From assembly GCF_003334785.1 (NCBI RefSeq), contig NZ_QOWV01000058.1: 1,930 nucleotides of DNA. One strand, given 5' to 3'. Source of the stretch: Escherichia coli. GTDB taxonomy: Bacteria > Pseudomonadota > Gammaproteobacteria > Enterobacterales > Enterobacteriaceae. This document shows positions 1-1,930 of this stretch, one piece after another (positions within the stretch are counted from its first letter, which is position 1; each line of letters begins with the position of its first letter). The position numbers and the translations under genes are program-made. The notes below the pieces were generated by a model that was given only the letters and a program-made list of their open reading frames with translations, had not been told where the DNA came from and ran no database searches.

Positions 1-123
1 AACCCCCCGTTCAGCCCGACCGCTGCGCCTTATCCGGTAACTATCGTCTTGAGTCCAACCCGGTAAGACACGACTTATCGCCACTGGCAGCAGCCATTGG
101 TAACTGATTTAGAGGAGTTTGTC

Positions 124-159: not shown

Positions 160-267
160 ACAGATTTTGGTGACTGCGCTCCTCCAAGCCAGTTACCTTG
201 GTTCAAAGAGTTGGTAGCTCAGCGAACCTTGAGAAAACCACCGTTGGTAGCGGTGGTTTTTCTTTAT
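160..267 (+). ncRNA. RNAI: Antisense copy-number control RNA I (about 108 nt) of a ColE1-family replicon
   Basis: Starts ACAGATTTTGGTGACTGCGCT as in ColE1-family RNA I. It ends in a stem-loop ACCACCG-ttggtag-CGGTGGT followed by a T-run, and the length matches the canonical 108 nt. Confidence 0.85.
237..266 (+). terminator. RNA I intrinsic terminator (third stem-loop plus U-tract)
   Basis: Perfect 7-bp stem ACCACCG (237-243) / CGGTGGT (251-257) with a 7-nt loop, immediately followed by TTTTTCTTT. Confidence 0.75.
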
Positions 268-274
268 TTATGAG

Positions 275-303
275 ATGATGAATCAATCGGTCTATCAAGT
301 CAA
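275..303 (-). promoter_or_regulatory. RNA II (replication primer) promoter
   Basis: On the - strand: -35 TTGACT (+ coords 298-303), 17-nt spacer, -10 CATCAT (+ coords 275-280), predicted start near 268. It sits where the RNA II promoter lies in ColE1-type replicons. Confidence 0.6.
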
Positions 304-323
304 CGAACAGCTATTCCGTTGAC
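299..323. repeat. 7-bp perfect inverted repeat GTCAACG-(11 nt)-CGTTGAC spanning the -35 elements of two divergent promoters
   Basis: GTCAACG at 299-305 and its reverse complement CGTTGAC at 317-323, read directly from the sequence. Confidence 0.8.
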
Positions 324-347
324 AAAAAAACAAGATCTGTACATATT
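319..347 (+). promoter_or_regulatory. Candidate sigma70 promoter for the toxin-antitoxin operon
   Basis: -35 TTGACA at 319-324, 17-nt spacer, -10 CATATT at 342-347, flanked by A7/A6 tracts. A weak SD-like ACGGA lies at 359-363, 8 nt before the ATG at 372. An in-frame stop at 279-281 with no intervening start codon fixes 372 as the start. Confidence 0.5.
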
Positions 348-371
348 CAAAAAAAACAACGGATTGACCCA

Positions 372-1412
372 ATGGCACAGAACCCGTTTAAAGCACTAAA
401 TATCAATATTGACAAGATTGAGTCTGCTCTGACGCAGAATGGCGTCACAAACTATTCCTCTAATGTAAAAAACGAAAGAGAAACTCACATATCTGGCACA
501 TATAAAGGAATAGACTTCTTAATAAAACTAATGCCATCAGGCGGAAATACCACTATCGGAAGAGCGTCTGGGCAAAATAACACTTACTTTGATGAAATCG
601 CCTTGATTATAAAAGAAAACTGTTTGTATTCAGACACAAAGAACTTTGAATACACCATTCCAAAATTCAGTGATGATGACAGGGCAAATCTATTTGAATT
701 TCTTTCTGAAGAGGGGATAACAATAACAGAAGATAATAATAACGATCCTAATTGTAAACACCAATATATTATGACCACCAGCAATGGTGACAGGGTCAGG
801 GCAAAAATTTACAAGCGCGGCTCTATTCAATTCCAAGGAAAATACCTTCAAATCGCGAGTTTGATTAACGATTTCATGTGCTCAATACTAAACATGAAAG
901 AGATTGTCGAACAAAAAAATAAAGAATTTAATGTTGACATAAAAAAAGAAACTATTGAGTCCGAGTTGCATAGCAAACTACCAAAAAGCATCGATAAAAT
1001 CCATGAAGATATCAAAAAACAGCTATCATGCTCGCTAATAATGAAAAAAATAGATGTCGAAATGGAAGATTACTCAACATACTGCTTCTCTGCATTAAGA
1101 GCCATAGAAGGCTTTATATATCAAATACTTAATGATGTTTGCAATCCATCATCATCAAAGAACCTTGGCGAATACTTCACTGAAAACAAACCCAAATATA
1201 TAATCAGAGAAATACACCAAGAAACTATAAATGGTGAAATAGCGGAAGTTTTGTGTGAATGCTACACTTACTGGCATGAGAACAGGCATGGTTTGTTTCA
1301 TATGAAACCAGGAATAGCTGACACGAAGACAATTAACAAATTAGAATCAATCGCAATCATCGATACCGTTTGCCAATTAATAGATGGTGGCGTAGCTAGG
1401 TTGAAATTATGA
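372..1412 (+). CDS. rnlA: RnlA/LsoA-family endoribonuclease toxin (RNase LS-like, HEPN-type), 346 aa
   Basis: Long ORF starting at the first ATG after an in-frame stop. C-terminal motif ENRHGLFHM (R305-x4-H310) fits the HEPN R-[NHD]-x3-H signature. LRAIEG (aa 242-247), GEYF (aa 266-269) and the R-H-x-LFHM block match my recollection of RnlA/LsoA. A downstream 126-aa partner overlaps by ATGA, as in rnlAB/lsoAB. Family call is from memory, not a database search. Confidence 0.7.
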   Translation: MAQNPFKALNINIDKIESALTQNGVTNYSSNVKNERETHISGTYKGIDFLIKLMPSGGNTTIGRASGQNNTYFDEIALIIKENCLYSDTKNFEYTIPKFSDDDRANLFEFLSEEGITITEDNNNDPNCKHQYIMTTSNGDRVRAKIYKRGSIQFQGKYLQIASLINDFMCSILNMKEIVEQKNKEFNVDIKKETIESELHSKLPKSIDKIHEDIKKQLSCSLIMKKIDVEMEDYSTYCFSALRAIEGFIYQILNDVCNPSSSKNLGEYFTENKPKYIIREIHQETINGEIAEVLCECYTYWHENRHGLFHMKPGIADTKTINKLESIAIIDTVCQLIDGGVARLKL

Positions 1413-1789
1413 AAAAAGATAAAAAATATCAAATAGAAGCAATAAAAAATAAAGATAAAACTTTATTTATTGTCTATGCTACTGATATTTATAGCCCGAG
1501 CGAATTTTTCTCAAAAATCGAATCCGACTTGAAGAAAAAGAAAAGCAAGGGTGATGTTTTTTTTGATTTAATAATTCCTAACGGTGGAAAAAAAGATCGT
1601 TACGTCTATACGTCATTTAATGGCGAGAAGTTTTCAAGTTACACATTAAACAAAGTTACGAAAACTGATGAATATAATGATTTATCTGAGCTCTCGGCTT
1701 CGTTCTTTAAAAAAAACTTTGATAAGATCAACGTAAACCTTCTATCCAAAGCCACATCATTTGCTTTGAAAAAAGGCATTCCAATATAA
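1409..1789 (+). CDS. rnlB: RnlB/LsoB-family antitoxin, 126 aa, lysine-rich
   Basis: ATG at 1409 overlaps the upstream TGA (ATGA), with an AGG SD-like element at 1398-1400. Size and position match the RnlB/LsoB antitoxin encoded downstream of its toxin. The segment GDVFFDLIIPNGG resembles a remembered RnlB segment. No MNT (GSxxxG/DxD) or HTH motif is evident. Confidence 0.6.
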   Translation: MKKDKKYQIEAIKNKDKTLFIVYATDIYSPSEFFSKIESDLKKKKSKGDVFFDLIIPNGGKKDRYVYTSFNGEKFSSYTLNKVTKTDEYNDLSELSASFFKKNFDKINVNLLSKATSFALKKGIPI

Positions 1790-1805
1790 TATCAAGCCAG
1801 AAGAC

Positions 1806-1834: not shown

Positions 1835-1930
1835 GCCAAAACGCGCTGAACGCGATTCTGACGCAGACACCGCAAAAAGAGATGTTTTCCCCGGGGTAAA
1901 CCGGAAAAATGCGTCAGGATCGCTTTCAGC

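What the first reader, a model, noticed from the sequence alone, without database searches (positions are those of the whole stretch)
372..1789. RnlA/LsoA-RnlB/LsoB-like RNase toxin-antitoxin (anti-phage) module as cargo of a ColE1-type plasmid
A 346-aa protein with a C-terminal HEPN-like motif is followed by a translationally coupled 126-aa basic protein. Size, order (toxin first) and local motifs match the RnlA-RnlB / LsoA-LsoB family, whose toxin is an mRNA endoribonuclease that is activated when T4 shuts off host expression and is countered by T4 Dmd. So I read this as a known family, not a new system. The value lies in the plasmid context and in any divergence of this homolog, including whether Dmd can neutralise it.
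Basis: partly seen in the sequence, partly recalled or inferred. Interest (0 to 1): 0.7.

Follow-up and report, generated by a model that had tools for sequence, protein, structure and literature searches.

The report
Known LsoA-LsoB toxin-antitoxin of pOSAK1
This window is an exact copy of part of the small E. coli O157:H7 plasmid pOSAK1 and carries the already published, structurally solved LsoA-LsoB anti-phage toxin-antitoxin pair, so it is a correct identification of something ordinary.

Summary
A 346-aa ORF (372-1412, +) overlaps a 126-aa basic ORF (1409-1789, +) by 4 nt (ATGA). All 1930 bases are 100% identical to pOSAK1 of E. coli O157:H7 Sakai (AB011548.2 / NC_002127.1, 830-2759, minus strand). 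ORF1 is 346/346 identical to PDB 5HY3 chain A, "mRNA endoribonuclease LsoA". Chain B of that entry is phage T4 Dmd. ORF1 has the full RnlA/LsoA architecture (N-terminal domain, repeated domain, HEPN/Dmd-binding domain) and all four catalytic or substrate-binding residues (R243, E246, R305, H310). ORF2 matches Pfam RnlB_antitoxin (E 4.7e-18). The ColE1 context also holds: RNAI lies at 162-265, and Rop and MobA lie on the rest of the plasmid. Small extras: the cassette occurs only on plasmids, in 68 of 5426 complete E. coli genomes. An 85%-identical variant cassette exists. Tn3 has carried the plasmid into a conjugative IncF resistance plasmid of Salmonella. Novelty: already known. Interest: very low.

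The parts
162..265 (+). RNAI, the antisense copy-number regulator of the ColE1-type replicon. It is context, not part of the TA module. The complementary strand of about 1-267 is the 5' part of the primer RNA II.
   Evidence: Rfam RF00106, 83.7 bits (gathering score 47), E 1.9e-15, model positions 1-102 of 102. The terminator-like hairpin at 233-261 is its 3' stem-loop.
275..303 (-). Sigma-70-like promoter (TTGACT-17-CATCAT) placed to start RNA II just beyond the 3' end of RNAI. Inferred only.
   Evidence: Consensus scan. The position fits ColE1 biology, which I state from established knowledge. The number of promoter-like sites in the window is not above chance (6 found, 5.7 expected).
319..347 (+). 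Sigma-70-like promoter (TTGACA-17-CATATT, 10 of 12 matches) 25 nt upstream of the lsoA start codon. It is the candidate lsoAB promoter. Inferred only.
   Evidence: The sequence is unchanged in the 85%-identical variant cassette plasmid and in a Klebsiella plasmid that lacks lsoAB.
372..1412 (+). lsoA: the 346-aa HEPN mRNA endoribonuclease toxin LsoA (39.6 kDa, pI 5.6).
   Evidence: 346/346 identical to PDB 5HY3_A 'mRNA endoribonuclease LsoA', E 3e-234. Annotated lsoA (WP_000068433.1) at the same coordinates in identical plasmids. Similar to RnlA structures 4I8O and 6Y2P, E 2.3e-14.
387..611 (+). LsoA N-terminal domain (aa 6-80).
   Evidence: Pfam PF19417 RnlA_toxin_N, E 2.9e-11.
639..893 (+). 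LsoA N-repeated domain (aa 90-174).
   Evidence: Pfam PF15935 RnlA_toxin, E 1.2e-29.
942..1307 (+). LsoA HEPN / Dmd-binding domain (aa 191-312). It holds R243 (nt 1098-1100) and E246 (nt 1107-1109).
   Evidence: Pfam PF19034 RnlA-toxin_DBD, E 3e-48, and PF18869 HEPN_RnaseLS, E 2.8e-13. The residues align to RnlA R255 and E258.
1284..1301 (+). Codons for the HEPN Rx4H motif, R305-H-G-L-F-H310.
   Evidence: The only Rx4-6H match in the protein. It aligns to RnlA R318...H323, which are required for RnlA RNase activity (PMC8266594).
1409..1412 (+). ATGA overlap of the lsoB start codon with the lsoA stop codon.
   Evidence: Read directly from the sequence.
1409..1789 (+). lsoB: the 126-aa basic antitoxin LsoB (14.5 kDa, pI 9.5). 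The RnlB_antitoxin domain covers aa 20-114 (nt 1466-1750).
   Evidence: Pfam PF15933 RnlB_antitoxin, E 4.7e-18. Annotated lsoB (WP_000710826.1) at the same coordinates in identical plasmids. Direct similarity to RnlB in 6Y2P_C is weak, E 0.39.

Best explanation
The window is a 1930-bp piece of the 3306-bp ColE1-type plasmid pOSAK1 (E. coli O157:H7 Sakai and many relatives). Positions 372-1789 are the lsoA-lsoB operon, a type II toxin-antitoxin system that aborts phage infection. LsoA is a three-domain HEPN endoribonuclease. In uninfected cells it is held inactive by direct binding of the labile protein antitoxin LsoB, which is made from the overlapping downstream gene. When phage T4 shuts off host gene expression, LsoB is no longer replenished and disappears. 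Free LsoA then degrades T4 mRNAs late in infection and blocks phage growth. Wild-type T4 escapes because its early protein Dmd binds LsoA in the groove between the repeated domain and the HEPN domain and so acts as a substitute antitoxin. What is shown here: sequence identity, domain architecture, catalytic residues, gene arrangement and plasmid context. What comes from the literature on this exact sequence: toxicity, neutralisation by LsoB, activation by T4 and inhibition by Dmd. What is inferred: the promoter at 319-347 and translational coupling.
For: 100% identity of all 1930 bases to AB011548.2 / NC_002127.1 (pOSAK1) and to dozens of 3306-bp O157:H7 plasmids annotated lsoA/lsoB. ORF1 is 346/346 identical to PDB 5HY3_A, LsoA. 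T4 Dmd, translated from NC_000866, is chain 5HY3_B. Pfam RnlA_toxin_N + RnlA_toxin + RnlA-toxin_DBD/HEPN_RnaseLS on ORF1, and RnlB_antitoxin on ORF2. R243, E246, R305 and H310 are all present and align with RnlA R255, E258, R318 and H323, which are essential for RnlA activity; their LsoA equivalents are essential for LsoA toxicity in vivo (PMC8266594). The mechanism is stated for LsoA-LsoB of pOSAK1 in PMC5308261, PMC10305079 and PMC8230891, all citing Otsuka & Yonesaki 2012, Mol Microbiol 83:669. LsoB binds both the repeated domain and the HEPN/Dmd-binding domain of LsoA (PMC5308261, citing Wan et al. 2016).
Against: Nothing in the sequence argues against it. Four caveats apply. (1) The two primary papers (pmid 22403819 and 27169810) are not in the held library, so the functional statements come from papers that cite them. 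(2) The NCBIfam and PADLOC HMM libraries gave no significant hit to either protein; this reflects gaps in those libraries, because Pfam and PDB match strongly. (3) LsoB resembles RnlB only weakly in a direct comparison (E 0.39), so its family membership rests on the Pfam profile. (4) The active oligomeric state of LsoA is unsettled: RnlA is active as a canonical HEPN dimer, but LsoA bound to Dmd was monomeric (PMC8266594).
Confidence: 0.97

Rival explanations
1. The module's main selected role is plasmid addiction (post-segregational killing that keeps pOSAK1 in the lineage), and phage defence is a side effect.
For: In 5426 complete E. coli genomes the cassette is found only on plasmids: 77 places, none chromosomal. 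Of 87 PLSDB records that hold it, nearly all are small ColE1-type plasmids. A labile antitoxin with a stable toxin is the classic addiction arrangement (PMC5308261). The 3.3-kb plasmid carries almost nothing else: Rop, a short MobA and small hypothetical ORFs.
Against: The function reported for this locus is restriction of T4 dmd mutants. From established knowledge, high-copy ColE1 plasmids are lost rarely, which weakens selection for addiction. I found no stability experiment for pOSAK1 in the held literature. The two roles are not mutually exclusive.
Confidence: 0.25
2. It is a diverged LsoA/RnlA homolog whose sensitivity to Dmd or specificity may differ from the characterised proteins. This is the reading that gave the first reader a score of 0.7.
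For: None for this window. Diverged relatives do exist elsewhere: an 85%-identical cassette whose proteins are 87% and 84% identical, on other small plasmids.
Against: There are zero differences from pOSAK1 over 1930 bases and zero differences from the crystallised LsoA over 346 aa.
Confidence: 0.01
3. The genes are decayed or inactive remnants carried passively by the plasmid.
For: None.
Against: Both reading frames are intact and full length. All four catalytic or substrate-binding residues are present. The cassette is 99-100% conserved across 75 plasmid records from E. coli and Salmonella. This very sequence was the one used for the functional and structural work.
Confidence: 0.01

Closest known systems
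LsoA-LsoB of plasmid pOSAK1, E. coli O157:H7 Sakai (Otsuka & Yonesaki 2012; LsoA-Dmd structure PDB 5HY3, Wan et al. 2016)
   Same: Everything. The DNA is 100% identical over the whole window. LsoA is 346/346 identical to 5HY3_A. lsoB has the same coordinates and sequence as annotated WP_000710826.1.
   Different: Nothing. The window is simply the reverse complement of record positions 830-2759.
RnlA-RnlB (RNase LS) of the E. coli K-12 chromosome (PDB 4I8O, 6Y2P-6Y2S)
   Same: The same three-domain toxin architecture and the same four key residues. The same toxin-first gene order with a small RnlB-family antitoxin. The same activation by T4 shut-off and the same inhibition by Dmd (PMC5308261).
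   Different: The sequences are distant: E 2.3e-14 over aa 56-322 for the toxin, and E 0.39 for the antitoxin. RnlAB is chromosomal and LsoAB is plasmid-borne. RnlB needs RNase HI to inhibit RnlA fully (PMC5308261); in what I read, this is not reported for LsoB.
Variant 'RnlA family/RnlB family' cassette on 2.9-4.6-kb ColRNAI plasmids of E. coli, Hafnia, Klebsiella and Salmonella (for example NZ_CP081780.1)
   Same: The same position just downstream of the same promoter-like sequence next to the RNA II promoter. The same gene order. The HEPN motif and the R/E pair are conserved.
   Different: About 85% nucleotide identity, with 87% (toxin) and 84% (antitoxin) amino-acid identity. The toxin is 345 aa and, by the annotated coordinates, the genes overlap by 1 nt. 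I found no experimental work on it.
HEPN-MNT (HepT-MntA) toxin-antitoxin systems
   Same: The toxin is a HEPN RNase with an Rx4-6H active site.
   Different: In HEPN-MNT the toxin is a single HEPN domain. It is neutralised by a nucleotidyltransferase antitoxin that occupies or chemically modifies the active site (PMC7641770, PMC8266594). Here the toxin has three domains, the antitoxin is of the RnlB family, and no MNT domain was found.

Membership tests
RnlA/LsoA toxin family (RNase LS-type HEPN endoribonucleases) | Three-domain architecture: N-terminal domain, N-repeated domain, C-terminal HEPN / Dmd-binding domain | tested here: met
   Pfam PF19417 (aa 6-80, E 2.9e-11), PF15935 (aa 90-174, E 1.2e-29), PF19034 (aa 191-312, E 3e-48) and PF18869 (E 2.8e-13).
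RnlA/LsoA toxin family (RNase LS-type HEPN endoribonucleases) | HEPN Rx4-6H motif plus the subfamily-specific Arg and Glu (RnlA R255, E258, R318, H323) | tested here: met
   LsoA R243, E246, R305 and H310 are present and align to the RnlA residues. Their roles are described in PMC8266594.
RnlA/LsoA toxin family (RNase LS-type HEPN endoribonucleases) | Significant sequence similarity to characterised members | tested here: met
   100% identity to LsoA (5HY3_A, E 3e-234). RnlA (4I8O, 6Y2P) at E 2.3e-14.
RnlA/LsoA toxin family (RNase LS-type HEPN endoribonucleases) | Endoribonuclease activity, and toxicity when expressed without the antitoxin | not testable with these tools
   Reported for this exact protein in the literature (PMC5308261 and PMC8266594, citing Otsuka & Yonesaki 2012 and Wan et al. 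2016).
RnlB/LsoB antitoxin family | Match to the RnlB_antitoxin profile | tested here: met
   PF15933, E 4.7e-18, aa 20-114 covering model positions 2-94 of 94. The direct comparison with RnlB (6Y2P_C) is only E 0.39.
RnlB/LsoB antitoxin family | Encoded immediately downstream of the toxin gene, overlapping it (toxin-first order) | tested here: met
   lsoB 1409-1789 overlaps lsoA 372-1412 by ATGA.
RnlB/LsoB antitoxin family | Binds and neutralises the cognate toxin; is proteolytically unstable | not testable with these tools
   From the literature: LsoB interacts with the repeated domain and the HEPN/Dmd-binding domain of LsoA, and disappears after T4 infection (PMC5308261).
Dmd-sensitive anti-T4 abortive-infection TA systems | The toxin is bound and inhibited by phage T4 Dmd | tested here: met
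   The identical LsoA sequence is chain A, and T4 Dmd (60/60 aa aligned, E 1.8e-37) is chain B, of the same PDB entry 5HY3. Functional inhibition comes from the literature.
ColE1-type (ColRNAI) plasmid | RNAI / RNA II antisense replication control, and Rop | tested here: met
   RNAI RF00106 at 162-265, 83.7 bits. A Rop gene lies on the remainder of the identical 3306-bp plasmid. PLSDB types related plasmids as ColRNAI.

The most novel reading that the evidence does not exclude
The low-GC block carrying lsoAB (about 266/367 to 1804) may be a discrete, exchangeable cargo module that sits at fixed junctions next to the RNA II promoter of ColRNAI plasmids. It has begun to move onto large conjugative resistance plasmids: an unresolved Tn3 cointegrate lies in the 95.7-kb IncF plasmid pSEN-DRC of a bloodstream Salmonella Enteritidis. 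There it could add phage defence or plasmid stabilisation to a plasmid of clinical concern. The 85% variant cassette might also differ in Dmd sensitivity. None of this changes what the window itself is.
Probability: 0.3. Interest if true: 0.15.

Novelty: already known. Interest (0 to 1): 0.05.

Why it matters
For discovery it matters little. LsoA-LsoB of pOSAK1 was described in 2012, its structure with the phage inhibitor Dmd was solved in 2016, and NCBI's annotation pipeline already names both genes. The result is useful as a calibration point: a reader working from raw sequence placed the family, the gene order and the plasmid type correctly, but could not tell a type specimen from a new homolog, and that inflated the interest score. 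There is also a practical point: the NCBIfam and PADLOC-DB v2.0.0 HMM libraries did not recognise either protein, so defence-system surveys that rely on those libraries alone could miss this known system.

Tried and rejected
(1) NCBIfam HMMs gave no meaningful hit for either protein: only Papain_Inhib at 13.8 bits against a cutoff of 150. PADLOC gave only a weak PDC-M07A hit, E 0.0012, and nothing for LsoB. I treated both as gaps in the libraries, not as evidence against membership.

(2) I tried to read the primary paper (pmid 22403819), but it is not held, so I relied on open-access papers that cite it.

(3) A full-text search for '5HY3' returned no relevant paper. I tied the entry to Dmd instead by translating T4 dmd and searching the PDB.

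(4) I looked for an operator-like inverted repeat in the lsoA upstream region, 255-420. Only 9-nt imperfect repeats and a short palindrome at 335-346 turned up, which is nothing convincing.

(5) The promoter and terminator scan found no more sites than shuffled sequence gives: 6 promoter-like sites against 5.7 expected, and 3 terminator-like sites against 1.8. The promoter assignments are therefore inference from position only.

(6) A tblastn search of LsoA against 50,697 phage records found no match, so there is no sign of a phage-borne copy.

(7) I did not run structure prediction, fold search or the large protein-database searches. An experimental structure of the identical protein exists, so they would have added nothing.

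Full report
**Observation.** The window holds two same-strand ORFs at exactly the stated coordinates: 372..1412 (346 aa) and 1409..1789 (126 aa). They share the tetranucleotide ATGA at 1409-1412, and AGG lies 8 nt upstream of the second ATG. ORF1 contains a single HEPN-type Rx4-6H motif, R305-HGLF-H310. ORF2 is basic, with pI 9.54. The long open frame runs 376 codons stop to stop, far beyond the maximum of 169 seen in 1000 shuffles. An ORF of 126 aa or more can arise by chance in sequence of this composition (16 of 1000 shuffles), so ORF2's reality rests on homology, not on length.

**Identity.** ORF1 is identical at 346 of 346 residues to PDB 5HY3 chain A, "mRNA endoribonuclease LsoA" (E 3e-234). 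The next best matches are the E. coli K-12 RnlA structures 4I8O and 6Y2P-6Y2S (E about 2e-14). Pfam finds the full family architecture: RnlA_toxin_N (aa 6-80), RnlA_toxin (aa 90-174) and RnlA-toxin_DBD / HEPN_RnaseLS (aa 191-312). ORF2 matches Pfam RnlB_antitoxin over the whole model (E 4.7e-18), although its direct similarity to RnlB (6Y2P_C) is only E 0.39.

At the DNA level all 1930 bases are 100% identical to pOSAK1 of E. coli O157:H7 Sakai (AB011548.2 / NC_002127.1, positions 830-2759, minus strand). They are also identical to dozens of 3306-bp plasmids of O157:H7 strains, in which NCBI's pipeline names the genes lsoA and lsoB. Window position w corresponds to record position 2760 - w.

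**Catalytic residues.** The HMMER alignment to RnlA places LsoA R243, E246, R305 and H310 opposite RnlA R255, E258, R318 and H323. Alanine substitutions of those four RnlA residues abolish RNase activity. The LsoA equivalents of R255, E258 and R318 are essential for LsoA toxicity in vivo (PMC8266594).

**Dmd.** I translated dmd from the T4 genome (NC_000866, 20371-20553) and searched the PDB. It is chain B of the same entry, 5HY3, "Antitoxin Dmd" (E 1.8e-37). So the exact protein encoded in this window has been crystallised bound to the phage inhibitor.

**Mechanism (from the literature on this locus).** LsoA-LsoB of pOSAK1 and RnlA-RnlB of K-12 are type II TA systems that act against phage. 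T4 shuts off host expression, the unstable antitoxin disappears, and the free endoribonuclease degrades T4 mRNAs late in infection, which blocks T4 dmd mutants. Dmd of wild-type T4 binds the toxin and replaces the antitoxin (PMC5308261; PMC10305079; PMC8230891; all cite Otsuka & Yonesaki 2012). LsoB contacts both the repeated domain and the HEPN/Dmd-binding domain of LsoA (PMC5308261, citing Wan et al. 2016). For RnlA, the active form is a canonical HEPN dimer that RnlB binds, blocking access to the active site. The LsoA-Dmd complex was monomeric (PMC8266594). The two primary papers are not in the held library.

**Context.**
- A full-length RNAI lies at 162-265 on the + strand (83.7 bits). The window therefore starts inside the RNA II primer region of a ColE1-type origin.
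- Rop and a short MobA lie on the part of the plasmid outside the window.
- The 106-nt spacer at 266-371 holds two divergent sigma-70-like sites. One is on the minus strand (303-275), placed to start RNA II. The other is on the plus strand (319-347, TTGACA-17-CATATT), 25 nt before the lsoA ATG.
- These promoter assignments are positional inferences. The scan found no more sites than shuffles give.

**Cargo limits.** Positions 266-1804 are 33% GC, against 48-52% in the flanks. Hundreds of ColE1-type plasmids that lack lsoAB resume similarity at about window 1805, which is 15 nt past the lsoB stop. On the left, most stop matching at the end of RNAI, near 267. One Klebsiella plasmid (NZ_CP138789.1) stays similar up to 366 and diverges 5 nt before the lsoA start codon. 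I cannot tell whether that plasmid lost the cassette or never had it.

**Distribution.**
- The cassette alone (372-1789) occurs in 87 PLSDB plasmids: 75 at 99% identity or more and 12 at 80-90%.
- It occurs in 68 of 5426 complete E. coli genomes, always on plasmids and never on a chromosome.
- The 85% variant encodes proteins 87% and 84% identical, with the catalytic residues intact. It is annotated only as RnlA/RnlB family.
- Derivatives of 8.27 kb are pOSAK1 with a Tn3 (blaTEM-1) insertion.
- In the 95.7-kb conjugative IncFIB/IncFII plasmid pSEN-DRC of a bloodstream Salmonella Enteritidis, the whole small plasmid sits between two blaTEM-1 copies, as in an unresolved Tn3 cointegrate.
- No LsoA homolog was found in 50,697 phage records.

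**Verdict.** Nothing in the window departs from the published system. Novelty: already known. Interest: very low.

Noticed in passing
window 162-265 (+), and 303-275 (-): A full-length RNAI (Rfam 83.7 bits) with an RNA II promoter-like site just beyond its 3' end. The first ~267 bases of the window are ColE1 origin (RNA II) sequence, shared at 80-100% identity with about 5000 plasmid records.
   Followed up: partly
window 319-347 (+): The best promoter-like site in the window (TTGACA-17-CATATT) lies 25 nt upstream of lsoA. It is unchanged in the 85% variant plasmid and in a Klebsiella plasmid that has no lsoAB downstream of it.
   Followed up: partly
window 266-1804; junctions near 366/367 and 1804/1805: A low-GC block (33% against about 50% in the flanks) marks the cargo. 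Backbone similarity to lsoAB-free ColE1-type plasmids resumes at about 1805. On the left, Klebsiella plasmid NZ_CP138789.1 (L003) diverges only 5 nt before the lsoA ATG. Whether the cassette was gained or lost there is undetermined.
   Followed up: partly
L004 (NZ_CP081780.1) 1419-2836, and similar 2.9-4.6-kb plasmids of E. coli, Hafnia, Klebsiella and Salmonella: A variant lsoAB-like cassette with about 85% nucleotide identity. The toxin is 87% identical (345 aa) and the antitoxin 84% identical. The catalytic residues are conserved. By the annotated coordinates the genes overlap by 1 nt rather than 4. It is annotated only as 'RnlA family/RnlB family'. I found no study of its Dmd sensitivity.
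   Followed up: partly
L006 (NZ_CP088140.1, 8274 bp) and L002 (NZ_CP063706.1, pSEN-DRC, 61041-62970): pOSAK1 with a Tn3/blaTEM-1 insertion circulates in Salmonella and E. coli as 8.27-kb plasmids. In a 95.7-kb conjugative IncFIB/IncFII plasmid from a blood isolate of S. Enteritidis (DR Congo), the whole small plasmid, including its origin, lsoAB, mobA and rop, lies between two blaTEM-1 copies next to IS26 and aph(3')-Ia. This looks like an unresolved Tn3 cointegrate.
   Followed up: partly
window 1318-1347 and 1333-1360 (+): Two overlapping promoter-like sites lie inside the 3' end of lsoA, about 50-90 nt upstream of lsoB. They could give lsoB its own transcript. The number of such sites in the window is no higher than chance.
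   Followed up: no
window 1-107 (+): NCBI's pipeline annotates a 37-aa 'hypothetical protein' (WP_001459398.1) here, inside the RNA II/origin region. It is cut off by the start of the window and is probably a spurious call.
   Followed up: no
window 1886-1909 (-), and 1790-1930 in general: A terminator-like hairpin lies on the minus strand, placed to end the convergent mobA transcript that comes from beyond the window. The scan found no terminator-like site on the plus strand after lsoB.
   Followed up: no
both proteins (372-1409, 1409-1786): The NCBIfam release 20 and PADLOC-DB v2.0.0 HMM libraries gave no significant match to LsoA or LsoB, although Pfam and PDB match strongly. Defence-system annotation that uses only those HMM libraries could miss this known system.
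   Followed up: yes
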